NCBI GenBank assembly: GCA_964362175.1
Contig: CAYIDD010000002.1
Coordinates: 45,939-109,938, forward strand
Source of the DNA: an uncultured Candidatus Saccharibacteria bacterium
GTDB taxonomy: Bacteria > Patescibacteriota > Minisyncoccia > Phycocordibacterales > UBA2100
Length of the DNA stretch: 64,000 nt
Reading direction: 5' to 3'
The translations under genes and the position numbers were made by a program. Positions within the stretch are counted from its first letter, which is position 1; every line of letters begins with the position of its first letter. Below the pieces are notes generated by a model, which searched no databases, was not told the DNA's origin, and saw only the letters and a list, made by a program, of their open reading frames with translations. Positions 1,455 through 55,181 of this stretch are shown in pieces.

Positions 1455-4400
1455 TTACTTTTCCATTTTGTACTCTTCCCACGGCTTCGTCTTTAATCCA
1501 TCGCCCTCGCCCGTGGCCCGGCCACGGGCGAGGCTTTTTTGCTCCGCGAGCGCCATCACGAATGCTTCGGCGAGCTGCCGATTTGTGAGAAGCGGAATAT
1601 TCATGTCGACCGCCTTGCGACGGATGGTGAAGCCATCGGTGCTCTCGCTCGCCCCCGGACAGGTGGGGATATTGATGATGAGATCAAGGGCCCCCGCATT
1701 CAGAATGGTTGCAACGTTCGGCTCTTTTTTTGTGCTTATTTTGTAGACCTTCTCGCACGCGACATCGTTCTCTCGAAGGAAATCTGCCGTGTGCTCCGTG
1801 GCGATGAGGTTAAACCTCATCGTGGAGAGGGTTTTCATCGTGGATAGCAACTTGACCTTGCTCTCTTCACCCCCGACTGAGACCAAAATGTTCTTCTTCG
1901 GCAGTCGGAAACCGGCGGCCATCATTGATTTCAGGAGTGCTTCGGAATATGAGTCCCCGAAACAGGCGACCTCACCCGTCGAAGCCATCTCGACATTTGA
2001 GCGTGGGTCGGCTCCTTTGATGCGACTGTAGGAAAATTGCGGCGACTTCACGGCGACAAGGTCGAGCTCCAGAGTCCGGTAATTGCCGGAAATATCTTTG
2101 CCGAGCATTGCCCAAACAGCTTTTTCAATGAGGTTATAGCCTGTTACCTTGGAAACGAACGGGAAGCTGCGCGAGGCGCGTACATTGCACTCGATCACCT
2201 GAAGATTGTTGTCTTTCGCGATGAATTGGATGTTAAAGGGTCCGGTGATGTTGAGCGCCTTTACTATTAATTTCGTGATATGTTTTGCCCTTCGGGTGGT
2301 CTCGATGTAGGTTCTCTGTGGCGGCAACACGACCGTCGCATCGCCGGAGTGCGTCCCTGCATTTTCAACGTGCTCGGTGATCGCATAGAGTTTTAGGTTC
2401 CCTTTTGCAGCCACTCCGTCAATCTCGATCTCGCGCGCGTTCTCGATGAATTTTGATATGACCACCGGATGGTCGGAGGAGACATCGGCCGCGCGCTTCA
2501 AGAATTGGAGAAGGGAAGCCTCATCATACGCGATCTTCATCGCCGCACCTGAGAGCACGTATGAGGGGCGTACGAGGACCGGATAGCCCATTTTTGCCGC
2601 TATCTTCGCGGCGTCCGCATGCGTCCGCACCTCCGACCACGCAGGCTGATCCACGCCGAGCGTGTCGAGAAGCTTTGAGAACACGTGACGATCTTCAGCT
2701 CTGTCGATATCCCTTGGATCCGTTCCGAGGATCCTCACTTTTCTTTTGTGCAGTTTGAGCGCCAGGTTGTTCGGGATCTGCCCGCCGGTCGAGACGATAA
2801 CGCCTTTCGGGTCTTCAAATTCGATGATGTCGAGTACGCGTTCAAGCGAGAGTTCGTCAAAGTAGAGTCTGTCGGACATGTCGTAGTCCGTAGAAACAGT
2901 TTCCGGATTCGAGTTGATCATTATCGTGCCGAAGCCTTCGTGCTCAAGTGTTTTTAAGGCTTGTACACAGGACCAGTCGAACTCTACTGAGGAGCCGATC
3001 GCGTACGGACCACTCCCGAGTACGACCACTTGATCTTTCCCGCGGGAGATATCATTTTCTGTGCCGTGGTAGGTCATGTAGAGATAGTTGGTCTGTGCGG
3101 GGAATTCACCCGCCAGAGTATCGATCTGTTTGACCACCGGACGTACCTTGAGGCGGATACGCGCAGAGCGTATGTCTGTTTCCGTTTGCCCCTTCGTGTT
3201 CCCTATCTGAGCGTCGGAAAAGCCGGCTTTTTTTGCCCGCCGCATCGTATCCACAGTGAGCTTTGAGCGCTGAAGTTCCTTTTCGACCTCAATAATATTT
3301 TGCATTTTGGCAAGGAACCACGGGTCGATCTTTGAGAGTGCGCGTATCTTTTCGATAGACTCGCCCTCCCGAAACGCCTGCGCAAGCGCAAAGATGCGGC
3401 GTGTGGTCGGCTCCTGTATCTCCTTTAGGCAATCGGACACTTCGAAATCTTTTTTATTTTTCTGCGCCGTAAAACCGAGAGCGCCGATATTGAGCATACG
3501 CAGCGCCTTTTGAAGAGTTTCTTCGAACGAGCGCCCGATCGCCATCACTTCGCCGACACTTTTCATTTCAGTACCGATACAGGATGCCGCATTCTCGAAT
3601 TTTGCGAGATCCCACCGTGGCATTTTGAGCACAAGATAATCAAGCGCGGGCTCGAAACAGGCGGTAGTTTTTCCCGTGACAGAATTTCTGAGGTCAGTGA
3701 GTAGGTGTCCGAGTGCGAGTTTGGCAGCTACGAATGCGAGCGGATAGCCAGTGGCTTTTGAGGCAAGTGCCGATGAGCGTGAGAGACGCGCATTCACTTC
3801 AATGACGCGGTAGTCACTACTCCCCGGATGAAGCGCATACTGAATGTTGCACTCGCCGACGATGCCGAGGTGGCGGATAGTCTTGATCGCGATCTCGCGA
3901 AGGTTGTGATACTCGGCATTCGAGAGCGTCTGCGATGGTGCAACGACGATAGATTCACCCGTATGAATGCCCATAGGGTCAATATTTTCCATGTTGCAGA
4001 CCGTGATGCAGTTGTCCGCACGATCACGGACCACCTCATATTCGATCTCCTTCCATCCGCCAAGATATTCCTCTATCAGCACTTGCGAGGTTGAGCGGAA
4101 AACTTCGGGAAGCTTTGCCGAAAGTTCTGCAGCGTTTTTCACCATGCCCGATCCCTCACCGCCGAGCGCGAATCCGGAGCGCATCATGACGGGGTAGCCG
4201 ATCTCCTGCGCGGCTTGAAGTGCTTCGGCGACAGTGGTGGTGGCATGGCTGCGGGCGGTTTTTACGCCTATCTCATCCAAGCGCTTTACAAACAGATCAC
4301 GATCTTCAGTATCGCGGATCGTGGAAACGGGAGTACCGAGAACGCGCACATTGTATTTTTTTAGCACGCCGCTTTTTTCGAGCGAGAGACCGAGGTTGAG

Positions 4401-4676
4401 GGCGGTTTGTCCGCCGAACGAAAGAAGTATGGCATCCGGCCTTTCTTTCTCGATGACTTGGGTCGCAAAGTATTCTGTCAGAGGAAGGAAGTAGACCGTG
4501 TCGGCAAGGCCATTGTCGGTCTGAACTGTCGCGATGTTCGGATTTATCAGGATTATACGGATCCCCTCCTCTTTAAGTGCTTTGATCGCCTGTGAACCGG
4601 AGTAATCGAATTCACCCGCCTGACCGATCTTCAAGCCCCCTGAACCCAGTAGCAGTGCTTTTTTCGGTTTTCTCAT
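1455..4676 (-). CDS. carB: Carbamoyl-phosphate synthase large subunit
   Basis: 1073 aa. N-terminus MRKPKKALLLGSGGLKIGQAGEFDYSGSQA. Duplicated ATP-grasp halves and an MGS-like C-terminal domain. Confidence 0.95.
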   Translation of the reverse strand: MRKPKKALLLGSGGLKIGQAGEFDYSGSQAIKALKEEGIRIILINPNIATVQTDNGLADTVYFLPLTEYFATQVIEKERPDAILLSFGGQTALNLGLSLEKSGVLKKYNVRVLGTPVSTIRDTEDRDLFVKRLDEIGVKTARSHATTTVAEALQAAQEIGYPVMMRSGFALGGEGSGMVKNAAELSAKLPEVFRSTSQVLIEEYLGGWKEIEYEVVRDRADNCITVCNMENIDPMGIHTGESIVVAPSQTLSNAEYHNLREIAIKTIRHLGIVGECNIQYALHPGSSDYRVIEVNARLSRSSALASKATGYPLAFVAAKLALGHLLTDLRNSVTGKTTACFEPALDYLVLKMPRWDLAKFENAASCIGTEMKSVGEVMAIGRSFEETLQKALRMLNIGALGFTAQKNKKDFEVSDCLKEIQEPTTRRIFALAQAFREGESIEKIRALSKIDPWFLAKMQNIIEVEKELQRSKLTVDTMRRAKKAGFSDAQIGNTKGQTETDIRSARIRLKVRPVVKQIDTLAGEFPAQTNYLYMTYHGTENDISRGKDQVVVLGSGPYAIGSSVEFDWSCVQALKTLEHEGFGTIMINSNPETVSTDYDMSDRLYFDELSLERVLDIIEFEDPKGVIVSTGGQIPNNLALKLHKRKVRILGTDPRDIDRAEDRHVFSKLLDTLGVDQPAWSEVRTHADAAKIAAKMGYPVLVRPSYVLSGAAMKIAYDEASLLQFLKRAADVSSDHPVVISKFIENAREIEIDGVAAKGNLKLYAITEHVENAGTHSGDATVVLPPQRTYIETTRRAKHITKLIVKALNITGPFNIQFIAKDNNLQVIECNVRASRSFPFVSKVTGYNLIEKAVWAMLGKDISGNYRTLELDLVAVKSPQFSYSRIKGADPRSNVEMASTGEVACFGDSYSEALLKSMMAAGFRLPKKNILVSVGGEESKVKLLSTMKTLSTMRFNLIATEHTADFLRENDVACEKVYKISTKKEPNVATILNAGALDLIINIPTCPGASESTDGFTIRRKAVDMNIPLLTNRQLAEAFVMALAEQKSLARGRATGEGDGLKTKPWEEYKMEK

Positions 4677-4677
4677 A

Positions 4678-5712
4678 TCACTTTTTCAAAGATGCGATGA
4701 ATTCATTGAATATCCATGTGGTGTCGGTCGGTCCGGGAGAGGCTTCGGGATGAAATTGCACCGAACGCCACGGCTTTGATCGATGACGGATGCCCTCGTT
4801 GCTTCCGTCGTTCGCATTCGTGAACCATTTTTCCCAACCGGCAGGAAGCGATTTCGCATGCACCGCGTAGCCATGATTTTGGGAGGTAAGGTAACAGCGG
4901 CCAGTTTTTGCTTCTACGCATGGCTGATTTTGACCGCGATGCCCATATTTGAGCTTGTATGTTTTTGCGCCTGCGGCGAGCGCGAGGAGTTGATTGCCAA
5001 GGCAGATGCCAAGAATGGGTTTTTTCTCAGCCATCGCCTTCTTGATGGTTTCGATGGTTGCGGTGCATTTGGTAGGGTCGCCAGGACCGTTGGAAATAAA
5101 AAGTGCATCATATTTTTCATTTGTAAGATCGTAATTCCACGGCACACGAATGACCGTTGTCTCGGGGCGGGTGAGGGAGCGGACGATGTTTTCTTTCATG
5201 CCGCAGTCAATTGCGACGATCTTTATCGGGCCGCCGCCGTATACTTTTTTCTTCTTGGGGCTCACGCGCGCGACAAGATCCTCTTTGTTGGGGTCGGTAA
5301 ATGTGCCACGTTTTCCTGAATTGGCGAGTTGTCCCAACATTACACCGCGTTCCCGAAGACGTTTGGTGAGCGCCCGTGTGTCGATGCCGGTAATGGCGGG
5401 AATTCCGGATGCCTTCAGCCATGAGGCGAGTGATCGCTGTGCATCGTGATGAGAGTATTCGGGAGAATACTGTGCGACGACCAATCCAGCCACCTGGATC
5501 TTAGGAGATTCGAATGTGTCCGGTGCAGGTACGCCATAGTTGCCGATAAGGGGATATGTGCAAACAAGTATCTGTCCGGCGTACGAAGGGTCTGTAAGGG
5601 TCTCTACATAGCCTGTCATGCCGGTGTTAAATACTACTTCTCCGGCGGCCGACACATCGGCACCAAAACTTTCCCCTTCGAACACCGTGCCGTCTTTGAG
5701 GTAGAGCTTCAT
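4678..5712 (-). CDS. carA: Carbamoyl-phosphate synthase small subunit (glutamine amidotransferase)
   Basis: The 344-aa C-terminal part of the 602-aa track ORF ([18 protein letters not shown]...; GATase motif GICLGNQLL) is CarA. The ATG at 5712 is in frame and lies 2 nt upstream of carB. The N-terminal 258 codons of the track ORF are non-coding extension. Confidence 0.9.
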
Positions 5713-5871
5713 GCAAGAAAAAACCCGCGATCTGCGGGCAATCGGGAGAGATAAAAAAATACACCCATGCGGGTGTTCTCTGCGAGAAACTTTCCGGAGG
5801 TCATTAAAACTGAAGTGTAGCAAATTCATTGTCGCTGTCAAGCTTGGGGTGTTTTTGTGTATACTCCCCCC

Positions 5872-7095
5872 ATGACACGTAACGAACTGCAAAAATCCAA
5901 GCTTCCCGACAAGCCCGGAGTGTATATATTCCGCGGGAAGGGAAGAAAGATACTCTACATCGGAAAGGCGACATCGCTCCGAGATCGCCTGCGAAGTTAT
6001 TTTTCGTCCAATATTGCCTCTATCCGCAGCAGCGCGATCGCAAAAATGGTGGAAGAGGCTCGCTCGATCTCGTACAAAACCACAAAGTCGGTGCTCGAAG
6101 CGCTCATTCTTGAGGCGAACCTCATAAAGCAGCATCAGCCGCCGTACAATCTCGATGAGAAAGACAACAAAAGTTGGAATTACGTAGTCATAACGAAAGA
6201 GAACTTTCCCCGAATATTGCTTGTGCGCGGACGAGAACTGTATCAGAAATGGGATCTGAAGGATGTCGCACGTACATTTGGACCTTTTCCACACGGCAAA
6301 CAATTGCAGGAGGCAGTGAAAATCGTTCGGAAAATATTTCCGTTCCGCGACAAATGTACACCCTGTGGAGGTCCCGACGTGGTATGCAAGCCGTGCTTCA
6401 ACCGGCAGATAGGGCTGTGCCCTGGTGTGTGTTACGGCGAAGTATCGAAAGAAGAATATGCGCGCACCGTTCGGAACATCCATCAATTATTTTCCGGGAA
6501 CTTTAAGGGGCTCAAACGGCAACTTGCGCGTGACATGAAAGCAGCGGCGGAGGGGGAGCGCTTCGAGGCGGCATCCAGACTGCGCCAGCAAATTTCGGCG
6601 CTCGAACATATCCGCGACGTATCGCTGATAAAAAATGGATTGCCATCGAGCGGCGGAGGCACTCGCATTGAGGCCCTCGATGTGGCGCACACCGGAGGGT
6701 CTGAGACCGTTGCGGTGATGGTCGTTGTCAGCAACGGAGAGGCGGTAAAGAATGCATACAGAAAATTTAAGATACGTACCGCGGCAAATGACGATATTGC
6801 GGCGCTCAAGGAGGCACTAACTCGTCGCCTCACTCATCCGGAATGGCCTCTACCGCGGGTGTTCGTCGTTGATGGGGGCGTGGCCCAAATGAGAGCTGCA
6901 GCGTTGGTTTCCAAGGAAGCCGGGGTTGCTATTCCTATCGTGGGGGTCGTAAAGAATGAGTTCCACAAGCCGGAACGCCTCATCGGGGACGCGCGGGCCA
7001 TCGAGGCGTATGAAAAGGATATTCTGTTCGCGAACAGCGAAGCCCACAGGTTCGCTCTTCAGTGGCACCGCACGCGCCGTGACAAGATATACTGA
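5872..7095 (+). CDS. uvrC: Excinuclease ABC subunit C, short form lacking the C-terminal HhH domain
   Basis: GIY-YIG motif ([18 protein letters not shown]), the UvrBC-interaction region and the RNase H-like endonuclease domain are present. It is only about 407 aa from the ATG at 5872; the track start at 5857 is a GTG overlapping the -10 box. Confidence 0.85.
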
Positions 7096-7100
7096 GTACC

Positions 7101-7535
7101 ATGTATTGGACCTATGTACAAATACTCACGTTTCTCTCTATCCTCGCGGTTATATTTGGCGGGGGATATGTAGCATATCGAAACGCGACAACGCCGGAAA
7201 CAATGGATCTGTATGCTGCCGCAGACCTTGATCTTTCCCGGTTTCCCCCCACCGTCTGCAGGACCTCATGGAGTTCATTTGAGGCAGCCGGAAGCGCGGT
7301 TGCGTATATTGTGGAAGGTAAATTTCGTATGGATGTGCAAATGGTCGCGGGAAAAGATACGGCCGTCTACCATATCGTAAAGCTCCCCGGCAAAGCTATA
7401 GAGGCTTCGGGCAAGCGAAATAACGTTGAGAATATTGATCCCGCAGATATTGTATTACCGGAAGCGGAATTACGTACCGTTGCACAATGTGATCCGTGGT
7501 GGTTCCCCAACCGGTCTTTTTTCAACGTCTTGTGA
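7101..7535 (+). CDS. Hypothetical membrane-anchored protein
   Basis: 144 aa with an N-terminal TM helix (ILTFLSILAVIFGGGYVAY) and no recognisable domain. It has its own TATACT -10 box 7 nt upstream. Confidence 0.5.
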   Translation: MYWTYVQILTFLSILAVIFGGGYVAYRNATTPETMDLYAAADLDLSRFPPTVCRTSWSSFEAAGSAVAYIVEGKFRMDVQMVAGKDTAVYHIVKLPGKAIEASGKRNNVENIDPADIVLPEAELRTVAQCDPWWFPNRSFFNVL

Positions 7536-12480: not shown

Positions 12481-12828
12481 ATGGCTAAGAAGCTATACGT
12501 CGGCGGGCTGCCCTACAGCACGACCGATACGGAGCTCAAAGATGCTTTCGCGCAAGCGGGGACCGTCGAATCTGCTGTCATCATCATGGATAAGATGAGC
12601 GGCCGTTCAAAGGGTTTCGGCTTCGTTGAGATGTCTTCCGATGAGGATGCACAGAAGGCGATCGATATGTGGAACGGTAAGGATTTCGGCGGACGCTCTC
12701 TCACGGTAAATGAAGCGCGTCCGATGGAAGACCGACCGCGACGCGACTTTCGTAGCGGCGGCAATGACCGCGGCGGTTACGGAGGCGGACGGGGAGGCAA
12801 TGGAGGAGGTGGCGGCAGAAGCTGGTAA
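12481..12828 (+). CDS. RRM-type glycine-rich RNA-binding protein
   Basis: RNP2 LYVGGL and RNP1 KGFGFVEM motifs, with a C-terminal RGG/GGYGGG tail. Confidence 0.9.
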   Translation: MAKKLYVGGLPYSTTDTELKDAFAQAGTVESAVIIMDKMSGRSKGFGFVEMSSDEDAQKAIDMWNGKDFGGRSLTVNEARPMEDRPRRDFRSGGNDRGGYGGGRGGNGGGGGRSW

Positions 12829-13005: not shown

Positions 13006-14217
13006 ATGGTGGCATCCGGTATGCGAGCTCAATTCGTGCGTGAACCAAGTCTGGCGAACCCGCTCCGTTCTGTTCGTGCACTCGAGCTCCACCGTTTCCT
13101 CTTGCGCGCGGCGCTGGCGGGGGTGAACATATTCGCATGGATGTTCGTCTTTCAGTATTTCTACCTCGTCGAAGCGGACATCGCGCACGCACTTGCGCGC
13201 ACCGCGCTCCTGTACGCGCTCTCACAGACCATCACATGCCTCGTCACTCCGTATGCCGCGCGGCGTCTTCGCGCGGGCGCGCGCAGCGCACTGATCCTGG
13301 GAACGCTCCTCGCGGCGGTCGCGTTCTTAACACTGAGGACGATGTTTGATGGATTCTGGCTTTCCGCATTCGCCACTGATGCGGTGCTAGGCTTCGCGCT
13401 CGCGATCGGACTGTACCGCGCGTTGTATTGGGTCCCGTATTCGGTCGAAGCCGCGGCGCATTTTCAAAAAAAACCATTGCTCATCGCGGAATTCCTGATC
13501 GCGTGCGCCCCTCTCGTCGGCGGCCTCTTCATCGCGGGGATCGGTATGGGGTTTGTGTGGATCCTGTACATCGGCGCTGCAATCATCGCGCTTTCTGCAA
13601 TTCCGGCATTTTTCATCCGCAATGTCCACGAAATATTTTCGTGGGGGTATCGCGAAACATTTTTACAGCTATTTGAATTTGAGAATCGGAGGATCGTGAC
13701 GGGGGGATTTTTGGAAGGCATTTCCGGTGCGGCAACGCTCCTCTTTTGGCCGCTTGCGGTATTTTTGATCGTTGATCAGTCATTCGGCATGCTCGGTATC
13801 ATCCTCACGCTCACGTTCTGGGTAGCGATATGGATGCGGAGGTTCATTCGCAGGATGCTGCGACGTCTCCGTCTTACCGGATCGTCAGCCGCGAATATCG
13901 TTTTTGCAATTACGCCGTGGCTGTTCCGTCTCGCCGTCGCCACCCCCCTCGGCATTATTTTTGTCGACTCATTTTTCTACACAACGACGCCGCGGCGCAT
14001 GGGGATCGATCCGCTTGCTTTTGAACAGGTTGCCGATGGAGGATCATACGTCGACGAGTTCACGGCCCTAAAGGAAGTTGCTCAAGCGCTTGGCAGGATC
14101 TCACTCTGTATTTTGGGGGCAACCGCCGTGCTTCTGGTTTCGGTTCCGACCGCGCTCGCGATGGTATTTTTTATCACGGCGCTTTCCGCAGCTGCGGGGG
14201 CGTATCGGTCGCGTTAG
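13006..14217 (+). CDS. Polytopic membrane protein, possibly an MFS-type transporter
   Basis: 403 aa with about 10-12 predicted TM helices and no diagnostic motif seen. Confidence 0.5.
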   Translation: MVASGMRAQFVREPSLANPLRSVRALELHRFLLRAALAGVNIFAWMFVFQYFYLVEADIAHALARTALLYALSQTITCLVTPYAARRLRAGARSALILGTLLAAVAFLTLRTMFDGFWLSAFATDAVLGFALAIGLYRALYWVPYSVEAAAHFQKKPLLIAEFLIACAPLVGGLFIAGIGMGFVWILYIGAAIIALSAIPAFFIRNVHEIFSWGYRETFLQLFEFENRRIVTGGFLEGISGAATLLFWPLAVFLIVDQSFGMLGIILTLTFWVAIWMRRFIRRMLRRLRLTGSSAANIVFAITPWLFRLAVATPLGIIFVDSFFYTTTPRRMGIDPLAFEQVADGGSYVDEFTALKEVAQALGRISLCILGATAVLLVSVPTALAMVFFITALSAAAGAYRSR

Positions 14218-14232
14218 TTACAAAACAAAAAA

Positions 14233-14268
14233 CCGCGTAAGGGGACGTACATAACATCCCTTACGCGG
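14233..14268 (-). terminator. Rho-independent terminator for the minus-strand 131-aa gene (bidirectional context)
   Basis: CCGCGTAAGGG ... CCCTTACGCGG 11-bp stem overlapping the stop codon. On the minus strand it is followed by TTTTTTGTTTTG. Confidence 0.65.
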
Positions 14269-14656
14269 CTCCAACATTCCCACGCGGTGGCCTCGCTTGT
14301 TTCGGCAGGTCAGAAAAGAGCATGGGTTGTTTCGTCTTCTTCCACGCCTTCTCAAAACGTTCGATCAGCTTGGCGAGTTTTCTTTTCCGTTCGGCAAGTT
14401 TGCGCTTACTGCGATAGGCTCTCGTTTTAGCCGCCTTCTTCGCCCACTTTGAACGGATTGCCAGTTCGACACGCCCGGTTGCCTTTTCGATCTCAAGGGG
14501 TGTCGGAGCATCATTCGGAACGTAATACTCGATGCGCAGATATGCCCGGATAGCATCCTTCAGGCCTCGTTTGTGCTTGAATGCCTCAGCGGTCTTTGCT
14601 TCCTTCCATTGGTAACTTCGGAAGAAAGCTACTACCAGCTCGTCATCTGGCTGCAT
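14261..14656 (-). CDS. Hypothetical basic protein (131 aa), second gene of an SD-bearing two-gene module
   Basis: ATG preceded by GGAGG at 7 nt. K/R-rich C-terminal helix (KTRAYRSKRKLAERKRKLAKLIERFEKAWKK). Followed by a terminator. Confidence 0.5.
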   Translation of the reverse strand: MQPDDELVVAFFRSYQWKEAKTAEAFKHKRGLKDAIRAYLRIEYYVPNDAPTPLEIEKATGRVELAIRSKWAKKAAKTRAYRSKRKLAERKRKLAKLIERFEKAWKKTKQPMLFSDLPKQARPPRGNVGAA

Positions 14657-14861
14657 GGCGCGGCCTCCGTGGCTCTGCGTTGTACCCGCGCATCTTCGTG
14701 CGGATTTGCCGCATGATGCGCTTGAGGTCGGGGCGATATGTCACGCCAGTACCACGAGCCACTTCGGCCGTGACATTGAAGAAACGCAATCGAGAACGGT
14801 CACTCGACGCAAACCACTTCTCCGCCGCCCTAGCGGTCAAAAGCTCAATGTTTGCTTTCAT
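14643..14861 (-). CDS. Hypothetical small protein (72 aa), first gene of the module
   Basis: ATG preceded by AGGGAG at 6 nt and a sigma70-like promoter TTGTGT-N17-TAGAAT (plus-strand coordinates about 14894-14922). Overlaps the next ORF by 14 nt. Confidence 0.45.
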   Translation of the reverse strand: MKANIELLTARAAEKWFASSDRSRLRFFNVTAEVARGTGVTYRPDLKRIMRQIRTKMRGYNAEPRRPRHAAR

Positions 14862-14933
14862 GTTCGGCTCCCTGTGCCGACTGCAGGAACGCGATTCTAC
14901 TGCATGGGACTATCCCACACAACGACTAACATT

Positions 14934-15389
14934 TCAAGATTTTAAAATATTTTGCACGACCTCCTTCACATCACTTCCATCCGCACCACCCGCAAACTCT
15001 TTCATCACGACACCCATGAGTTTGCCTGCGCCCGAAGCATCGGTGACGCCGAGCTCTGCCATTTTGGCACGCGCGACTTTTTCTATTTCGTCGTGTCCCG
15101 CCGTCCGCGGTAAATACTCCTCGATAACTTTCAGTTCGTTCGACTCTTTCTCCGCGAGTTCGGGTCTTCCACCTGCGGCAAATTGTTCGGCCGAATCTTT
15201 CCGCTGTTTTGCAAGCCGTTTCAATACCACCACCGCCTCGGCATCGGACATTTCTTCGGTCGGTTTCCTACCCTTGGCAACGAGTTCGTTGGTAAACGCT
15301 GAAAGCGCCCCGCGCAGAGTATCGCGCTTGAGGCCATCTTTTGCCTTCATCGCGGCAGTCATGTCGGCGCGGATTTTTTGGGTCAGCAT
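14934..15389 (-). CDS. yqeY: GatB/YqeY-domain protein
   Basis: The C-terminal 151 aa of the long minus-strand track ORF matches the YqeY domain (MLTQKIRADMTAAMKAKD...GKLMGVVMKEFAGGADG). ATG at 15389. The upstream part of the track ORF is non-coding. Confidence 0.75.
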   Translation of the reverse strand: MLTQKIRADMTAAMKAKDGLKRDTLRGALSAFTNELVAKGRKPTEEMSDAEAVVVLKRLAKQRKDSAEQFAAGGRPELAEKESNELKVIEEYLPRTAGHDEIEKVARAKMAELGVTDASGAGKLMGVVMKEFAGGADGSDVKEVVQNILKS

Positions 15390-20983: not shown

Positions 20984-21055
20984 AGTTCGGGTTTCATCCC
21001 TGCGGGATTGTTAATAAGCGGCTTTTTCAGTGTCGCGAGATGGTAGAATCGCCAC

Positions 21056-22483
21056 ATGGTCTTCATAGGCGACTATGAGCAACAGGGGGTGATCACCACC
21101 GGTGATGTACGGGGCATTATCTCGGGGTTTCTTCATCTTGATCTACACAAGATAATCGACGGAACGGTGGGAAACTACTGGGGCATTTCGCGCGCGCTCC
21201 AACTCAGCATTCTCTTTTGGGGATTTATGGGTATCCTGTGGATCCAGATTCCCCACCTACCACTTTTTGCGGCTCAATGGCTTCTCGGAACAGCGCCTAT
21301 TTGGATGCCTATAGTGACGCTGGTCACAACATGGAAGATCTGGCTGTGGTATTCGCGCAGCATGTATCTCTTTAAGCGGGATTCGATGCTTCTCGAGGTG
21401 AAGATGCCGCGGGACATTACGCGTTCGCCGCGGGCGATGGAAAATGCGCTCTCGAAGCTTTGGACCGACTCGGGTGAGACGACATTCCTGAACCGCGTGT
21501 GGCAAGGTCAGTGCAGACCGTATTTTTCTCTGGAAATCGCTTCGTTCGGCGGCGAGATCCATTTCTATATATGGACGTGGCGTAACTGGAGACAGGTCGT
21601 GGAGTCAATGATGTATGCATACTATCCGGAGGTCGAGCTTGTGGAGGCCGAAGATTATGCCTCGAAGTTCAAATTCGATCCGGACACGCAGGAATGTTTT
21701 CCCACCGATTGGCGCTACGAGCCGCGCAACGACGCGTATCCCATACGCACCTACGTCGAATTCGAGCTCGATAAGGACCCCAAGGAGGAGTACAAGATCG
21801 ATCCTCTCGCAGAGGTGCTTGAGCGCATGAGTGGTCTCAGGCCAGATGAACAGATGTGGATACAGATAATCATCACGATGTGCAGGGATACTCGCGCAAA
21901 AAAAGGCGGGCATTGGTGGGAAACGGAAAATCGTTACACCGCATTGATCAAAGAAGAGATCGATGTGCTTCGCAAAGAGACGACCTCTGCCGATCCGGGT
22001 GATCGATCCGCACCTGATGCATGGAAGTCAATGGCTCGCGTCCCGATGCATCGCTACACGGAATTGATCAAGGCTATGGACCGCAACATGGGCAAGCACC
22101 CCTTCAACGTCGGCATGCGCGGCGTGTATATCTCGGATGCGAAGAATTTTGCGGGGCCGGGCTATACCGGCATGCGCTGGATATGGCGCCCTGTGGGAAA
22201 TCCGCAATATATGAACCAATTGCGTCCGCGTCGCTGGGGCAACCCATTCGACTGGCCGTGGCAGGATTATAAAGACATCCGGTGGCGCCTGATGCAGCGC
22301 AGATTTTTCGATTGTTATCGCAGGCGCTCCCATTTTTATTCTCCGTGGATCATGCCGCACAATATGATGAGCACCGAGATCATCGCGACACTGTGGCATC
22401 CGCCAAGCGCCGCGATCGGCGTTCCCGGCCTTGAGCGTATTCCCGCAAAGAAGGCGGAGCCGCCATCGAATTTGCCGAAATAA
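21056..22483 (+). CDS. Hypothetical Trp-rich membrane-anchored protein (475 aa)
   Basis: Two N-terminal TM helices, then about 370 aa that are W/R/Y-rich. No Walker or other known motif. Own TAGAAT -10 box 6 nt upstream. Confidence 0.5.
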   Translation: MVFIGDYEQQGVITTGDVRGIISGFLHLDLHKIIDGTVGNYWGISRALQLSILFWGFMGILWIQIPHLPLFAAQWLLGTAPIWMPIVTLVTTWKIWLWYSRSMYLFKRDSMLLEVKMPRDITRSPRAMENALSKLWTDSGETTFLNRVWQGQCRPYFSLEIASFGGEIHFYIWTWRNWRQVVESMMYAYYPEVELVEAEDYASKFKFDPDTQECFPTDWRYEPRNDAYPIRTYVEFELDKDPKEEYKIDPLAEVLERMSGLRPDEQMWIQIIITMCRDTRAKKGGHWWETENRYTALIKEEIDVLRKETTSADPGDRSAPDAWKSMARVPMHRYTELIKAMDRNMGKHPFNVGMRGVYISDAKNFAGPGYTGMRWIWRPVGNPQYMNQLRPRRWGNPFDWPWQDYKDIRWRLMQRRFFDCYRRRSHFYSPWIMPHNMMSTEIIATLWHPPSAAIGVPGLERIPAKKAEPPSNLPK

Positions 22484-35134: not shown

Positions 35135-35195
35135 TTACTCACACATAACTCGGGAGTGCGCCTCTATGTACCCGTAGGCACGATATACTGACGAA

Positions 35196-36362
35196 ATGTT
35201 CGGAACACATCTCGGGCGCGGGCGCGGGAAGATAGTCGCTGTCGCCGATATTGGAAGCGGAAGCGCGGGTGTCGCAATACTCGGCATTCATCCCGGCGAG
35301 CCGGTATCGGTCCTTGCTGCCGAACGCGCCATCCTTTCCATGGAGGATCGTGGGGAAGAGGCAACAACGACGGGGGTCGCCGATCAACTCGTAAAAGCGG
35401 GAGAAGCCGTCAGAAAAAAATTCACTAATCTGGGCAAGGATGCACATCCCATACATGAACTCTACGTCATCATACGGGCGCCGTGGAGCCATTCCGAGAC
35501 GAAACGTGTCTCGACGACATTCAAAGAGCAAATCACGGTTACCGATCATATGATCGGCGAGCTTGCCGAGCGAGCGCTCGCCGAGGTGAGGGAGCTCGAT
35601 CGTGGGAACTTTCTGGAAGCCAAGGTGATACGGGTCGAGCTCAACGGGTACTCGTGTGCGAAACCCGTGGGCAAGCACGCAACGGAGATCTCGGCATTTG
35701 TGCTGATAAGCGGTTGGCACTCGACCATCCGCGCCAAAATAGAGGCGTCTTTGCAAAAGGTGTTTCCCCACCTTTCCCCCGCATTCCGCTCTTCAGTATG
35801 GGCGGCGATCGCGGTGTTGCGGGAGGGAATGTCGCAAGAATATGATTATCTCATCGTCGACATGTCGAGCGAGGGGACAGCATTCGTGGCGATCCGCGAT
35901 GGTGTCGCCACCGAACACATGCTTATTCAGGAGGGGGTGCGCACCATACTGAAACGTGTCTCCGGATCGGGAATGCCTGAAGAGGCTCTGAACCTCATCC
36001 GCATGCTTTCGTCGGATCAATGCTCGAGCGCCGCGTGCGAGGCTACCCGCGAGTCGCTCGCTCGTGCGGAGCCGGAACTTGTACGGGTCTTCGGGGAAGC
36101 GCTCGGCACATGCGCATCGGAACAACGATTACCAAACACGCTCATTCTATTCGTTCATCCCGATGTTGCCACGTGGCTTTCGCGTTTCTTTTCACGTATC
36201 GACTTTTCGCAATTCACGAAAACGGCGCAACCGTTCCAGGTGAGGATCGTCGGCACTACTGACCTTTCGACATGGGTGGCACCGTCGGGCGGCATGGTAT
36301 TGGATCCGGGACTCGCGCTTGGAAGCGCACTTGTCAACATCGAGAAGCGGAGGGGGCAATGA
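35196..36362 (+). CDS. Actin-like (ASKHA-superfamily) ATPase, FtsA/PilM/Ppx-like
   Basis: Phosphate-1 VAVADIGSGSAGVAILGI and phosphate-2 LIVDMSSEGTAFVAI motifs, 388 aa. Exact family unresolved. Confidence 0.5.
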   Translation: MFGTHLGRGRGKIVAVADIGSGSAGVAILGIHPGEPVSVLAAERAILSMEDRGEEATTTGVADQLVKAGEAVRKKFTNLGKDAHPIHELYVIIRAPWSHSETKRVSTTFKEQITVTDHMIGELAERALAEVRELDRGNFLEAKVIRVELNGYSCAKPVGKHATEISAFVLISGWHSTIRAKIEASLQKVFPHLSPAFRSSVWAAIAVLREGMSQEYDYLIVDMSSEGTAFVAIRDGVATEHMLIQEGVRTILKRVSGSGMPEEALNLIRMLSSDQCSSAACEATRESLARAEPELVRVFGEALGTCASEQRLPNTLILFVHPDVATWLSRFFSRIDFSQFTKTAQPFQVRIVGTTDLSTWVAPSGGMVLDPGLALGSALVNIEKRRGQ

Positions 36363-36383
36363 GGTTTGGTATACTGAGTCGCT

Positions 36384-37736
36384 ATGGCTAAGGACTATTT
36401 TCAAGACATTATGCCACCGTCCCACGACCCCGAAGAGGCGCGGGAGATCCCGATCCGCCACAGCGACGAGGATGAGATCGAGGTACAGACAGAGCTCGTT
36501 CGCGGTATACGCAATATCTCATCCCCCGCTCGAATGCGTCCGGCCCCTCGTCCTGTTCAGGTGCCGGTCGGAGATGAACGCGAGATCCACCGACCCTCTC
36601 GTCTCTGGATCTGGGCCGTGGCGGCAGTTCTGGCGTTGGTCCTCTCTGTCTTTGCTCTCCTCATGTTCCGCTCAACGAGCGTGACCATTACGCCCAAATC
36701 ACGTCTCACATCCTTTACCGATACGATCCTTTACAATGCGTATCCTGCCGGTGCGGCGGACGGGTCGCTCCCATACACGGTTCAGAGTTTTGATATAGAG
36801 GATTCGGAAGTTGTTCCTTCCCAGGGGACGGTTCATGTTGAGAGAAAGGCTTCGGGAAGCATCACGGTATTCAATGAGCATTCCAGCGCGGTCGTGCGTC
36901 TGATCAAAAATACCCGCTTCGAGACGCCTGAGGGCCTCATTTTCCGGACCCCTGCGGATATCGTCGTACCAGGAAAGACGAGCGCCGGGCCGGGGACCGT
37001 GAACGTGACGGTTGTCGCAGATCAGGTGGGGGAAAAGTACAACATCGGGCCTGTTGCGCGCTTTAATCTGCCGGGGCTCAAATCGGGGGAAATGTATACG
37101 AAGGTTTACGCAAAATCGAACACTGCCATGTCGGGGGGATTCGCGGGTGAGGAGCCGGGTACAGCGCCCGGAGCACTCAACGCCGCTATCGCAGCGGTGC
37201 GTGGTCGGCTGGAATCCAACGCCCGTGAATCCGTACGCACGCTTATCACTGCGGACTCCGTCGCGTTCCCTGAGATCGTCCGGATCACCTATCAGTCGCT
37301 GCCGAACACACAGGAAGCCGGGCCCGGTGTACGGATCCATGAAAAAGCGCACGTCGAGGTTCCTATATTACCGGCGGATGTCTTTGCCGCGATCATCGCT
37401 CAATCCACGGCTGCGGATACGGGCAATTCGTCCATAAAACTCATTCCAGGCAAGGATTTTGGGGCTCGTTTGGCGACCACGGCCCCCATCTCCCTTGGGG
37501 CTGATCCACTTACATTCGTCTTGATCGGCCAGGCCCGTTTGGTGTGGAACGTCGATGAAAAAGCGCTCGCAGAGGCTCTTGCGGGCCATGACAGCGACGC
37601 GTTCCAGACCATCGTCAACGGTTTCTCGGGCGTTCAGGAAGCACATGCAAGAATAGAACCATTTTGGAAAAAAGCATTCCCCAAAGACGCGGCGGATATC
37701 AAAATAACGATCAAGGAATTCGAGATGGAGCCGTAG
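36384..37736 (+). CDS. Bitopic membrane protein with a large extracytoplasmic domain (450 aa), probably in an operon with the upstream actin-like ATPase
   Basis: About 75-aa acidic cytoplasmic N-terminus, single TM (LWIWAVAAVLALVLSVFALLMF), then a 350-aa beta-rich domain. Starts 21 nt after the previous gene. Confidence 0.5.
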   Translation: MAKDYFQDIMPPSHDPEEAREIPIRHSDEDEIEVQTELVRGIRNISSPARMRPAPRPVQVPVGDEREIHRPSRLWIWAVAAVLALVLSVFALLMFRSTSVTITPKSRLTSFTDTILYNAYPAGAADGSLPYTVQSFDIEDSEVVPSQGTVHVERKASGSITVFNEHSSAVVRLIKNTRFETPEGLIFRTPADIVVPGKTSAGPGTVNVTVVADQVGEKYNIGPVARFNLPGLKSGEMYTKVYAKSNTAMSGGFAGEEPGTAPGALNAAIAAVRGRLESNARESVRTLITADSVAFPEIVRITYQSLPNTQEAGPGVRIHEKAHVEVPILPADVFAAIIAQSTAADTGNSSIKLIPGKDFGARLATTAPISLGADPLTFVLIGQARLVWNVDEKALAEALAGHDSDAFQTIVNGFSGVQEAHARIEPFWKKAFPKDAADIKITIKEFEMEP

Positions 37737-44562: not shown

Positions 44563-44592
44563 TTGCTCCCTACCTCTAGCGGGCACTATAAT
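44563..44592 (+). promoter_or_regulatory. dnaJ promoter: -35 TTGCTC (44563-44568), 18-nt spacer, -10 TATAAT (44587-44592), 7 nt upstream of the dnaJ ATG (leaderless geometry)
   Basis: Direct sequence reading. Confidence 0.5.
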
Positions 44593-44599
44593 TAAGTAC

Positions 44600-45673
44600 A
44601 TGAAGAACTATTACGAGATACTTGGCATAGCCAAGGGCGCGAGTGACGAGGAGATAAAGAGTGCATTCAGAAAGCTGGCCCACAAGTATCATCCGGATAA
44701 GAAAGGCGGCAACGAGGCGAAGTTCAAAGAGGTGAGCGAGGCTTACTCGGTGCTTTCCGATAAGAAGAAGCGCGCTGAATATGATACCTACGGCAAGACG
44801 TTCGCCGGAGGTGGGGGGCCACAAGGCGGGGGTTTCGGAGGATTCGATTTCTCCAATTTCCAAGGATTCGGCGGACAGAACGGGCAGGCATTTGAGTTCG
44901 ACTTGGGCGATATATTCGGCGATGTATTCGGCGGAGGACAGGCCCAGGCGCGTCGAGGGCGTGATATTTCGATAGACCTTGAACTTTCATTCCGTGAGGG
45001 AGTTTTCGGTGCCGAGCGCCGCGTTCTCCTCTCTAAAATGAGCGCCTGCGATGTTTGCGGTGGCACCGGCGCGAAGAAAGGCGCGAAGATGGTGACGTGT
45101 ACGGGCTGCAACGGCAAGGGCGAAATACGCGAGTCACGCAATTCTTTCTTCGGCACCTTTACATCATCGCGCTCCTGCCCGCGCTGTCACGGCCGCGGGG
45201 AGATACCGGAGATCCCCTGCGATTCGTGCCGCGGCGAAGGCGTGCGCAAGCGCGAAGAGGAAATACATGTGGTGGTTCCCGCAGGCGTCGAAGACGGCGA
45301 GATGATACGCATGCCCGGCCGCGGAGAAGCCGCGACAGGGGCGAGTGCGGGAGATCTCTACGTCAAACTTCACATCAAATCCGACGCGCGATTCTCGCGC
45401 GATGGCAACAATCTCGTTACATCACTCCCCGTGCGGCTCACCGACGCTCTCTTGGGCAGGGAATATAGTATCGATACGCTTGATGGCAAAGAGACCATTT
45501 ATGTAAATCCGGGCATCGCGCATGGGGAAATTATTCGCGTACGGGGCAGGGGGGTACCACACGGCCGGGGAAGTCGCGGCGACCTTTTGGTGCGCGTTGA
45601 TATCGAATTCCCGAAAAAACTCTCGAAAGGTGCGCGTGAATTGATAGAAAAATTGCGCACAGAGGGGCTCTAA
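44600..45673 (+). CDS. dnaJ: Chaperone DnaJ
   Basis: J-domain with HPD (KYHPDKK), G/F-rich region and four CxxCxGxG zinc-finger repeats. Confidence 0.95.
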
Positions 45674-54083: not shown

Positions 54084-54116
54084 ACTGATAACTATACCCG
54101 TAGTACAATACCCACC

Positions 54117-55181
54117 ATGCTCCCACCTCTCGTCCTTGTCCTAGTGCCCGCAGCAATTGCCTTTTTGGTCGGTATTATTGCGACCCCGATCCTCACCCAC
54201 TACCTGTACGCGTACAAAGCATGGAAAAAACGCCCCGGCAAACAAGCCTTCGACGGCAATGTGGCACACGAATTTAATCGTCTCCACGCTGAAAACGAAG
54301 TGCGCGCACCGCGCATGGGTGGCATCGTGGTGTGGGGTTCGGTCGTGATCACCACCCTTGGGATCTCCGGCATCGCGTATCTTTTTCCATCTCCCTCCAT
54401 CTTCCAACTTGATTTTCTGAGCAGAAGCCAGACGTGGTTGCCGCTCGCGACACTGATCGTCGGAGCATGTGTGGGACTCCTTGACGACATGATGGTCATA
54501 CGCCCGAACGGCGAGGGGTTGCGCTTGAGACATCGCCTCCTGATCGTAATAACCCTCTCCTCCTTCATCGGATGGTGGTTCTGGGAGAAGCTCGACGTGA
54601 CCGCCGTCAACATCCCTTTCTCCTCTCCGTTCGAATTGGGATGGTTCATTATTCCGTTTTTCGTCTTCGTCTCGCTTGCACTCTACGCGTCTGGAGTCAT
54701 CGACGGCATCGACGGTCTTTCGGGCGGCGTGTTCGCTTCGATCTTTGCCTCATACACCATCATTGCGTTCGCTCAGGGACAGACGGACCTTGCGGCGTTC
54801 ACCGCGTGTATTCTCGGCGGCCTCCTCGCGTTCCTGTGGTTCAACGTGCCGCCTGCGCGGTTCTACATGAGCGACACCGGCACAATGGGGCTCACGCTTG
54901 CGCTTGGCACTATCGCGTTCATGACCGATGACCTCGGCGGGGGATTCGGTATCGCCGTGCTGCCCGTCATCGGAGCGCTTCTCGTCGCAACCGTGCTTTC
55001 GGATGTTGCGCAGCTGTTCTCAAAAAAGTTCTTCGGAAAAAAACTGCTCCGTATAGCGCCACTCCACCATCACTTCGAGGCGATCGGATGGCCCGGACAT
55101 AAGGTCGTGATGCGCTATTGGATACTCTCCATCGTATTTGCCTTCGCGGGAGTCATTGTCGCGCTTTCCGCGCTCTCTTGA
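54117..55181 (+). CDS. mraY: Phospho-N-acetylmuramoyl-pentapeptide transferase
   Basis: DDMMVIR and IDGIDGLSGG motifs, 10 TM. Confidence 0.9.
   Translation: MLPPLVLVLVPAAIAFLVGIIATPILTHYLYAYKAWKKRPGKQAFDGNVAHEFNRLHAENEVRAPRMGGIVVWGSVVITTLGISGIAYLFPSPSIFQLDFLSRSQTWLPLATLIVGACVGLLDDMMVIRPNGEGLRLRHRLLIVITLSSFIGWWFWEKLDVTAVNIPFSSPFELGWFIIPFFVFVSLALYASGVIDGIDGLSGGVFASIFASYTIIAFAQGQTDLAAFTACILGGLLAFLWFNVPPARFYMSDTGTMGLTLALGTIAFMTDDLGGGFGIAVLPVIGALLVATVLSDVAQLFSKKFFGKKLLRIAPLHHHFEAIGWPGHKVVMRYWILSIVFAFAGVIVALSALS

What the first reader, a model, noticed from the sequence alone, without database searches (positions are those of the whole stretch)
14261..14933. Two-gene module with its own sigma70 promoter and canonical Shine-Dalgarno sites, boxed between terminators: a foreign-looking insertion
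Minus strand. Promoter: TTGTGT-N17-TAGAAT (plus-strand coordinates 14894-14922). First gene: AGGGAG-N6-ATG, 72-aa ORF (14643-14861). It overlaps by 14 nt a second, 131-aa ORF (14261-14656) that is preceded by GGAGG-N7-ATG. A strong terminator follows (14233-14268). Almost every other gene in the window lacks an SD, so translational signals here are atypical for the host. The proteins are small, basic and family-less; the second has a K/R-rich C-terminal helix. This fits a horizontally acquired module (TA-like pair, phage or plasmid remnant, or small nucleic-acid-binding regulator pair). Alternatively it is one gene broken by a frameshift in the 14-nt overlap.
Basis: partly seen in the sequence, partly recalled or inferred. 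Interest (0 to 1): 0.5.

Follow-up and report, generated by a model that had tools for sequence, protein, structure and literature searches.

The report
Swappable orphan gene pair after yqeY
Two small, very basic, overlapping genes of unknown family sit in a slot downstream of yqeY that in related groundwater Patescibacteria is either empty or filled with differently combined small gene pairs; the second protein ends in a short docking peptide that resembles the motif other proteins use to bind the DNA sliding clamp.

Summary
The sequence features are real: both ORFs, both Shine-Dalgarno sites, the TTGTGT-N17-TAGAAT promoter and a strong terminator (-28 kcal/mol). There is only one terminator, so the module is not "boxed". 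Most other genes in the window are leaderless, so these translation signals are indeed unusual for the host.

Both ORFs are genuine separate genes, not a frameshifted single gene. ORF1 has homologues in six other loci. ORF2 belongs to about 25 clusters among 1.84 billion representatives, all without Pfam, PDB, phage or plasmid matches.

Every relative whose context I checked lies in the same place: yqeY -> A -> B -> <- membrane protein, in Kaiserbacteria-type Patescibacteria. Of 50 loci with this synteny, including the window, 23 have an empty slot. The other 27 hold unrelated A and B families in shuffled combinations, with one sharp recombination breakpoint at an A/B junction.

Composition is host-like, and no repeats or mobility genes are present. 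This is a lineage-internal, fast-turnover cassette slot, not a foreign insertion.

ORF2 has a conserved N-terminal domain, a K/R-rich helix of variable length and a C-terminal peptide (QPMLF). The peptide resembles a beta-clamp-binding motif.

The architecture is toxin-antitoxin-like. The function is inferred, not shown.

The parts
14894..14922 (-). Sigma-70-type promoter TTGTGT-N17-TAGAAT. Its -10 box plus the 8 nt downstream (AGTAGAATCGCGTTCC, 14901-14886) is a conserved element.
   Evidence: Read directly. The 15-mer GTAKAAYCGCGTTYC occurs once per locus at the same position in L008, L019, L021 and L035, and the same element was read in L088. It occurs nowhere else in the window.
14862..14893 (-). 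Inferred 5' leader of about 25 nt containing the SD AGGGAG (14873-14868), 6 nt before the ATG.
   Evidence: The SD and ATG context is conserved in the ORF1 homologues of L008 and L019. No conserved leader structure was found.
14643..14861 (-). ORF1 ('A' gene, family A5): 72 aa, pI 11.8, predicted three short helices and a basic tail.
   Evidence: Homologues lie in L008, L014, L019, L089 and L091 at the same position.
14261..14656 (-). ORF2 ('B' gene, family B0a): 131 aa, pI 10.4. It has a conserved N-terminal domain (about residues 1-75), a K/R-rich helix (about 68-109) and the C-terminal peptide QPMLF-SDLP.Q..PPRGNVGAA. The SD GGAGG (14668-14664) lies inside ORF1, and the start overlaps the ORF1 end by 14 nt.
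14233..14268 (-). Intrinsic terminator hairpin followed by a T-run (14232-14222). Its 5' arm overlaps the ORF2 stop codon.
   Evidence: Related hairpins follow the B genes in L005, L035, L039, L021 and L014.
14934..15389 (-). yqeY, the conserved left flank of the slot.
   Evidence: Pfam YqeY, E = 6e-40. Synteny.
13006..14217 (+). Convergent multi-pass membrane protein gene with no Pfam family, the conserved right flank of the slot.

Best explanation
SHOWN. ORF1 and ORF2 are a real, translationally coupled two-gene operon (A then B). It occupies a hypervariable cassette slot between the convergent genes yqeY and a membrane-protein gene in Kaiserbacteria-type Patescibacteria.

In relatives the slot is either empty, with the two stop codons overlapping, or filled. 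Filled slots hold small A/B pairs drawn from at least four unalignable A families and four B families in shuffled combinations.

B can be exchanged independently of A, with a sharp breakpoint at the A/B junction. Exchange happens between conserved boundaries: a promoter 15-mer on the left and a terminator on the right. All members whose context was checked stay in this one slot, and composition is host-like. Turnover therefore looks like homologous recombination within the lineage, not import by a mobile element.

INFERRED. ORF2 is a tethered docking protein with three parts: a small conserved N-terminal domain, a K/R-rich helix of very variable length that probably binds nucleic acid, and a C-terminal peptide (QPMLF).

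In homologues this peptide reads xPx[LF][FL] or Q-type (QLDLF, QLTLPL, QLVLI, QRRLF). The most likely target is the hydrophobic cleft of the beta sliding clamp (DnaN).

Docked there, ORF2 would compete with polymerases and repair factors and so slow or block replication. The known clamp-targeting TA toxins SocB and RipA act on the same target. ORF1, made in fixed ratio through coupling, would be the neutralising or regulatory partner.
For: Genes are real:
- ORF2 is 49% identical to a Kaiserbacteria protein.
- It matches 25 clusters in a full HMMER scan.
- ORF1 has homologues with a conserved SD/ATG context.

Synteny and the slot:
- Synteny is shown.
- 23 slots are empty and 27 occupied, of 50 loci.
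- A and B families are shuffled, and hhalign finds no link between the families.
- L020 and L023 share 80% DNA identity through yqeY and the A gene. The identity stops at the A/B junction and resumes in the membrane gene.
- The promoter 15-mer is shared by modules with three different A families.
- Terminator remnants are shared by different B genes.

Origin within the lineage:
- GC and GC3 are host-like.
- There are no flanking repeats.
- There are no phage, plasmid or viral hits.

Docking peptide:
- 31 of 34 B proteins carry the C-terminal motif.
- A CBM-like pattern occurs in the last 25 residues of 7 of 14 B proteins, spanning all four B families. It occurs in 0 of 13 A proteins and 6 of 472 control ORFs.
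- About a third of homologues end exactly at the motif. The basic linker varies from about 10 to 70 residues.

Literature:
- The CBM consensus QL(S/D)LF at C-termini, and SocB binding the clamp through a CBM, are described in PMC9690074.
- The RipA toxin acting on DnaN is described in PMC12795458.
Against: - No binding or toxicity data exist.
- Most homologues have S, R, E or N, not Q, at motif position 1, and P at position 2. That departs from QL[SD]LF.
- The short forms (EPTFL-COOH) resemble the FtsZ C-terminal peptide at least as well.
- I defined the motif pattern after seeing the sequences.
- A and B families shuffle freely, which is awkward if A must bind B specifically.
- The shared promoter element argues against each A family having its own operator.
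- No similarity to any known toxin or antitoxin family was found.
- The AF2 models have low confidence: pLDDT 68 and 64.
- Strict linkage to yqeY could instead mean a housekeeping-related role.
Confidence: 0.4

Rival explanations
1. The pair are lineage-specific, non-toxic accessory nucleic-acid-binding proteins tied functionally to yqeY, for example in RNA, tRNA, ribosome or nucleoid biology. They would be inherited vertically, evolve fast under weak constraint and often be lost. The C-terminal peptide would bind some other partner.
For: - Every homologue whose context was checked lies directly downstream of yqeY.
- In several loci the A gene starts 15 nt after, or overlapping, the yqeY stop with no promoter of its own (L005, L039, L012, L030).
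- Both proteins are very basic.
- Composition is host-like.
Against: - 23 of 50 relatives lack any gene in the slot, so the pair is dispensable.
- B is swapped for unrelated families between close relatives. Turnover of that kind is typical of conflict or accessory cassettes rather than housekeeping partners.
Confidence: 0.25
2. ORF2 mimics the conserved C-terminal peptide of FtsZ (core P-x-F-L, from my own recollection). It would act as a cell-division modulator or inhibitor by competing for FtsA, SepF or similar anchors.
For: - Nine or more homologues end in EPTFL, APKFL, EPMFL or EPKFL at the very C-terminus.
- The architecture (domain, variable linker, conserved peptide, variable tail) parallels FtsZ's linker, CTT and CTV as described in PMC3418248.
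Against: - The window protein and most long forms read P-x-L-F, not P-x-F-L.
- The hydrophobic residue that precedes P in FtsZ is missing.
- Members without P have Q-type, clamp-like motifs (QLTLPL, QLDLF, QDLLF).
- No FtsZ from this lineage was available for comparison.
Confidence: 0.12
3. The module is a recent horizontal insertion from a phage, plasmid or other mobile element.
For: - It has its own promoter, SDs and terminator, unlike the leaderless host genes.
- Its distribution is patchy.
Against: - No homologues in phage, plasmid or viral-contig collections.
- Host-like GC3.
- No repeats or recombinase genes.
- All relatives belong to the same lineage and slot, with divergence comparable to the neighbouring membrane protein: 48% against 38% identity.
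Confidence: 0.05
4. ORF1 and ORF2 are one gene broken by a frameshift or assembly error in the 14-nt overlap.
For: The 14-nt overlap, and the fact that three of four gene callings omit ORF1.
Against: - Four independent assemblies carry the identical ORF2.
- All relatives keep two ORFs with a stop/start overlap or junction.
- ORF1-family genes are followed by unrelated B families (L008, L019), and ORF2-family genes are preceded by unrelated A families (L005, L035, L021).
Confidence: 0.02

Closest known systems
Type II toxin-antitoxin operons, in particular clamp-targeting ones (SocAB of Caulobacter; RipA/RipB of S. pneumoniae)
   Same: - Two small adjacent genes with overlapping stop and start, and an own promoter.
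- Patchy distribution.
- Mix-and-match of upstream and downstream families.
- The downstream protein carries a clamp-binding-like peptide, as reported for SocB (PMC9690074). DnaN is also the reported target of RipA (PMC12795458).
   Different: - No sequence or profile similarity to any TA or defence family.
- Never found outside one chromosomal slot.
- Toxicity, neutralisation and autoregulation are untested.
- In SocAB the antitoxin is a protease adaptor, and nothing indicates that here.
Bacterial beta-clamp-binding motif proteins (QL[SD]LF / QLxLxL)
   Same: - A short hydrophobic peptide sits at or near the C-terminus, after a flexible or variable linker.
- It is the only element shared across otherwise unalignable families.
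- Some members match the consensus exactly in pattern (QLDLF, QLTLPL, QLVLI).
   Different: The window protein has QPMLF, with P at position 2. Most homologues lack Q. No binding evidence exists.
Accessory-gene or defence 'hotspots' between conserved core genes
   Same: Conserved flanks, alternative unrelated cargo, empty alleles, and sharp recombination breakpoints.
   Different: - The cargo is only 0.4-1.5 kb of orphan small genes.
- It contains no known defence genes or integrases.
- It occurs in reduced-genome CPR bacteria.
FtsZ C-terminal conserved peptide (CTT)
   Same: A P-x-F-L core at the extreme C-terminus of the short homologues, with a variable linker preceding it.
   Different: The order is L-F rather than F-L in the window protein. 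The upstream hydrophobic and acidic context differs. The rest of the protein is unrelated to FtsZ.

Membership tests
Type II toxin-antitoxin system | Two small co-directional genes in one operon, usually with overlapping or abutting stop and start | tested here: met
   The window has a 14-nt overlap with the SD of ORF2 inside ORF1. Relatives have ATGA/GTGA overlaps.
Type II toxin-antitoxin system | Homology of at least one partner to a known toxin or antitoxin family | tested here: not met
   Pfam, NCBIfam, PADLOC and PHROGs gave nothing above noise for the window pair. Pfam gave nothing for 34 slot proteins or for 26 ORF2-family members.
Type II toxin-antitoxin system | Toxicity of one partner, neutralised by direct binding of the other | not testable with these tools
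   Needs expression experiments. Free shuffling of A and B families is a caution.
Type II toxin-antitoxin system | Patchy, mobile distribution, often at many sites or on mobile elements | tested here: inconclusive
   The distribution is patchy: 23 slots empty and 27 occupied. It is always in the same slot, and never on phages, plasmids or viral contigs.
Beta-clamp-binding (CBM) proteins | Pentapeptide QL[SD]LF or hexapeptide QLxLxL | tested here: inconclusive
   The window has QPMLF, which matches Q1, L4 and F5. Of 34 B proteins, 10 carry a Q-type peptide and 23 carry xPx[LFM][FL], two of them both. The consensus is taken from PMC9690074.
Beta-clamp-binding (CBM) proteins | Motif at a terminus or in an unstructured segment, conserved while its surroundings vary | tested here: met
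   The motif lies in the last 25 residues, and at the extreme C-terminus in about a third of homologues. The preceding linker varies from 10 to 70 residues.
Beta-clamp-binding (CBM) proteins | Physical binding to the DnaN hydrophobic cleft | not testable with these tools
   No dnaN gene is in the held sequences, and no complex prediction was available.
Rho-independent terminator | GC-rich hairpin followed by a U-tract | tested here: met
   An 11-bp perfect stem extends to 17 pairs, at -28 kcal/mol and z = -6.2, followed by TTTTTTGTTTT.
Mobile-element insertion (IS, prophage remnant or integrative element) | Flanking direct or inverted repeats, a recombinase or transposase, and atypical composition | tested here: not met
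   No flanking repeats, no such genes nearby, and host-like GC3.

The most novel reading that the evidence does not exclude
Kaiserbacteria-type CPR bacteria keep a dedicated recombination slot behind yqeY. In it they exchange small two-gene cassettes whose effector proteins share only a C-terminal hub-docking peptide. This would be a previously undescribed family of sliding-clamp-targeting (or divisome-targeting) toxin/regulator pairs that modulate replication in ultra-small bacteria. The conserved promoter element AGTAGAAYCGCGTTYC would be their common control site.
Probability: 0.25. Interest if true: 0.7.

Novelty: new variant of a known kind. Interest (0 to 1): 0.42.

Why it matters
CPR/Patescibacteria have tiny genomes in which a large share of genes has no known function. 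This locus shows that even these genomes keep a fast-turnover accessory slot with combinatorially exchanged small-gene cassettes. It also defines two new protein families with a testable molecular handle, the C-terminal docking peptide.

If the peptide binds DnaN, the pairs would be a new class of replication-targeting modules in organisms that cannot be cultured alone. They would also supply natural clamp-binding peptides with unusual sequence (xPxLF).

If it does not bind DnaN, the finding remains a well-delimited example of orphan-gene turnover, of modest general interest.

Tried and rejected
- Family searches: Pfam, PHROGs, NCBIfam and PADLOC on both proteins gave only sub-threshold noise, such as PGDYG and the Cas9 bridge helix. 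Pfam on 34 slot proteins and on 26 ORF2-family members gave nothing.
- PDB sequence searches, both single-sequence and profile, gave nothing.
- Structure: AF2 gave an all-helical ORF2 model at pLDDT 68 and an ORF1 model at pLDDT 64. Foldseek against the PDB gave no match with E < 1.
- RNA: Rfam on the region found no RNA family. A conserved leader RNA structure upstream of the A genes was not found.
- Mobile-element origin: phage and plasmid tblastn and two viral-contig scans gave no hits.
- Homology between window ORF1 and the 106-aa ORF in the Kaiserbacteria locus was rejected. BLASTP gave E = 0.27 and tblastx gave nothing. They belong to different A families.
- hhalign between the A families and between the B families was not significant, with a best probability of 14%.
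- A LexA/Cheo-box reading of the promoter 15-mer (GAAC-N3-GTTC) was considered and dropped. The spacer is 3 nt rather than 4, and no other copy exists in the window.
- A search for ftsZ or dnaN in the held sequences, to compare lineage-specific motifs, found none.
- Flanking repeats around the module: none.

Full report
**1. What is in the sequence**

On the minus strand I read the following features:
- TTGTGT (14922-14917), 17 nt, TAGAAT (14899-14894).
- A leader of about 25 nt with AGGGAG, then 6 nt, then the ATG of ORF1 (14861-14643, 72 aa).
- GGAGG, then 7 nt, then the ATG of ORF2 (14656-14261, 131 aa). ORF2 overlaps ORF1 by 14 nt.
- A hairpin, CCGCGTAAGGG/CCCTTACGCGG (14268-14233), that starts at the ORF2 stop codon and is followed by TTTTTTGTTTT.

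The hairpin folds at -28 kcal/mol, z = -6.2 against shuffles. The pattern scanner missed it only because its loop is long.

No terminator lies between yqeY (14934-15389) and ORF1. "Boxed between terminators" is therefore wrong.

Both proteins are very basic, with pI 11.8 and 10.4.

**2. Host context**

The window is a Patescibacteria MAG from Hainich groundwater. Four independent assemblies carry the identical ORF2, which NCBI labels a hypothetical protein.

About 25 of 61 long ORFs have a -10 box (TAnnnT, often TGnTAnnnT) ending 4-9 nt before the start codon. That arrangement marks leaderless mRNAs. It occurs at only 4.6% of internal control ATG/GTG codons. Strong SDs are rare.

The module is therefore unusual in having a leader and SDs. 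Its GC and GC3 are nonetheless host-like: 0.64 and 0.56 against 0.62 +/- 0.04.

**3. Both ORFs are real and separate genes**

ORF2:
- It has a 49%-identical homologue in a Candidatus Kaiserbacteria genome.
- A full HMMER scan of 1.84 billion representatives with the two-sequence profile found 25 clusters.
- A profile search of 5.8 billion proteins with a broader alignment found 8 clusters, all Patescibacteria, Kaiserbacteria or Parcubacteria.

ORF1:
- A direct search found nothing beyond itself.
- Homologues turned up among ORFs at the same position in related contigs: L008, L014, L019, L089 and L091.
- In L008 and L019 the AGGAG-N-ATG start context is conserved.

ORF1-family genes are followed by unrelated downstream genes in L008 and L019. 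ORF2-family genes are preceded by unrelated upstream genes in L005, L035 and L021. This excludes the frameshift reading.

**4. The slot**

A metagenome scan with a YqeY alignment gave 80 related loci. The order RmuC <- yqeY -> [slot] <- membrane protein <- RRM protein is widely conserved.

Of 50 loci, including the window, where both flanks could be placed:
- 23 have the two stop codons overlapping or less than 70 nt apart, so the slot is empty.
- 27 hold 0.4-1.5 kb of cargo.

The empty group includes close relatives with 90-91% RmuC identity, such as L031, L041 and L043.

The cargo is usually a coupled pair: a small A gene, then a B gene with an ATGA/GTGA-type overlap. Clustering gives at least four A families and four B families. 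hhalign cannot connect them.

The combinations are shuffled:

| A family | B family | Loci |
|---|---|---|
| A5 | B0a | window, L091 |
| A5 | B0b | L014, L089 |
| A5 | B18 | L008, L019 |
| A6 | B0a | L035 |
| A6 | B0b | L039, L088 |
| A3 | B0a | L021 |
| A3 | B0b | L023 |
| A3 | B23 | L020 |
| A11 | B0a | L005 |

L020 and L023 are 80% identical in DNA through yqeY and the A3 gene. The identity stops at the A/B junction and resumes in the membrane gene. This is a clean cassette swap.

The boundaries of the slot are conserved:
- Left: the element AGTAGAAYCGCGTTYC, which is the -10 box plus 8 nt. The 15-mer pattern occurs once per locus in the window, L008, L019, L021 and L035, and the same element was read in L088. 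It is present regardless of A family and is nowhere else in the window.
- Right: a related terminator hairpin. Its 5' arm and loop encode the ...PRGNVA tail, which persists even behind earlier stop codons or behind unrelated B genes.

Every family member whose context I could retrieve lies in this same slot, including the most divergent ones.

There are no phage, plasmid or viral-contig relatives, no flanking repeats and no recombinase genes.

I conclude that this is a cassette slot internal to the lineage, turned over by homologous recombination and deletion. It is not an imported element.

**5. What the proteins look like**

No member of any slot family hits Pfam or PDB sequences.

The AF2 models are helical and of low confidence:
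- ORF2: pLDDT 68, helices at residues 3-22, 30-43 and 53-109.
- ORF1: pLDDT 64, three short helices.

Foldseek found nothing.

The 26-sequence alignment of the ORF2 family shows three parts:
- A conserved N-terminal domain of about 75 residues. W17 is invariant, and S14, R68 and S69 are nearly so, as in the motif IRSRWxKKAAxTR.
- A K/R-rich segment whose length varies from about 10 to 70 residues.
- A C-terminal hydrophobic peptide.

About a third of members stop right after the peptide (EPTFL, APKFL, EPMFL, QLTLPL, QGKLFE). The others continue with LPxQx[KR]P...VA.

Across 34 B proteins from the B0a, B0b, B18 and B23 groups, 31 carry such a peptide. Of these, 23 carry xPx[LFM][FL] and 10 carry a Q-type peptide, with two carrying both. 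Q-type examples are QPMLF in the window, QLDLF, QLVLI, QRRLF, QYRMF, QDLLF and QLTLPL.

A clamp-binding-like pattern occurs in the last 25 residues as follows:
- 7 of 14 B proteins, spanning all four B families.
- 0 of 13 A proteins.
- 6 of 472 control ORFs from the same loci.

I chose the pattern after seeing the sequences, although it follows the published consensus.

**6. Mechanism**

The bacterial clamp-binding motif is QL(S/D)LF, typically C-terminal and tolerant of variation. The TA toxin SocB uses such a motif to block replication (PMC9690074). RipA is another TA toxin acting on DnaN (PMC12795458).

Four observations fit a clamp-docking protein that interferes with replication, with ORF1 as its partner:
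- the architecture of domain, variable basic tether and terminal peptide;
- the recurrence of the peptide across otherwise unalignable B families;
- the coupled two-gene organisation;
- the patchy, swappable distribution.

This is inference only.

Several points count against it:
- Most homologues lack the Q.
- P at position 2 is unusual. From memory, E. coli MutL has QPLLIP.
- The short forms look like the FtsZ C-terminal peptide P-x-F-L. That core is from my own knowledge. The FtsZ architecture is described in PMC3418248.
- A/B shuffling and the shared promoter element do not fit a simple model of a specific antitoxin and operator.
- Strict linkage to yqeY may instead indicate a housekeeping-related accessory role.

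I could not compare with this lineage's own DnaN or FtsZ, because neither is in the held sequences.

**7. Verdict**

- Right: an accessory, TA-like, variable module with empty sites in relatives.
- Wrong: foreign, phage or plasmid origin, and the frameshift alternative.

The families are new and uncharacterised. The phenomenon, an accessory cassette hotspot with a TA-like pair, is of a known kind. The possible hub-docking peptide is the part worth an experiment.

Noticed in passing
whole window, e.g. 7081-7103, 21036-21058, 35176-35198, 36364-36386, 44580-44602, 54097-54119: Many genes have an extended -10 box (TGnTAnnnT) ending 4-9 nt before the ATG and no SD. This applies to about 25 of 61 long ORFs, against 4.6% of internal control codons. 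Leaderless mRNAs appear to be the default in this Patescibacteria genome.
   Followed up: partly
window 14886-14901 (-); L008 551-565; L019 4468-4482; L021 4423-4437; L035 4467-4481; L088 ~622-637: The conserved non-coding element AGTAGAAYCGCGTTYC (-10 box plus 8 nt, containing GAAC-N3-GTTC) sits at the cassette promoter in six independent loci, whatever A family follows. Its role is unexplained; it may be an operator, a discriminator or a recombination boundary.
   Followed up: partly
L021 5183-5230; L014 3256-3300; L030 ~2320-2344: The terminator hairpin next to the membrane-gene stop encodes a ...PRGNVA-like tail. The remnant persists after earlier stop codons, or at the end of an unrelated B gene. 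The right cassette boundary therefore seems to lie inside the terminator.
   Followed up: partly
L020 2240-2974 (-), L026, L040 1487-2029 (-), L054, L064, L083, L085: In several relatives a conserved minus-strand gene of about 180-240 aa also sits in or beside the slot (cluster FAM1). By eye it resembles a 3-methyladenine DNA glycosylase, but I did not check it against Pfam.
   Followed up: no
window 4678-6483 (-): The CarA-like small subunit of carbamoyl-phosphate synthase has an N-terminal extension of about 250 aa with no Pfam match before the CPSase_sm_chain domain. CarB follows at 1455-4667.
   Followed up: no
L013, L019, L022, L033, L035, L038, L039, L044 versus the other loci: The RmuC gene divergent from yqeY falls into two identity classes relative to the window copy, about 75-95% and about 50%. 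The neighbouring yqeY and RRM genes stay similar. This suggests replacement of RmuC by a paralogue or xenologue in some lineages.
   Followed up: no
window 12481-12828 (+): An RRM_1 RNA-binding protein with a glycine/arginine-rich tail is the most conserved neighbour, with up to 96% amino-acid identity across relatives.
   Followed up: no
window 14655-14945 (+): A 96-aa ORF antisense to ORF1 and the promoter region has no homologues. It is most likely spurious.
   Followed up: partly
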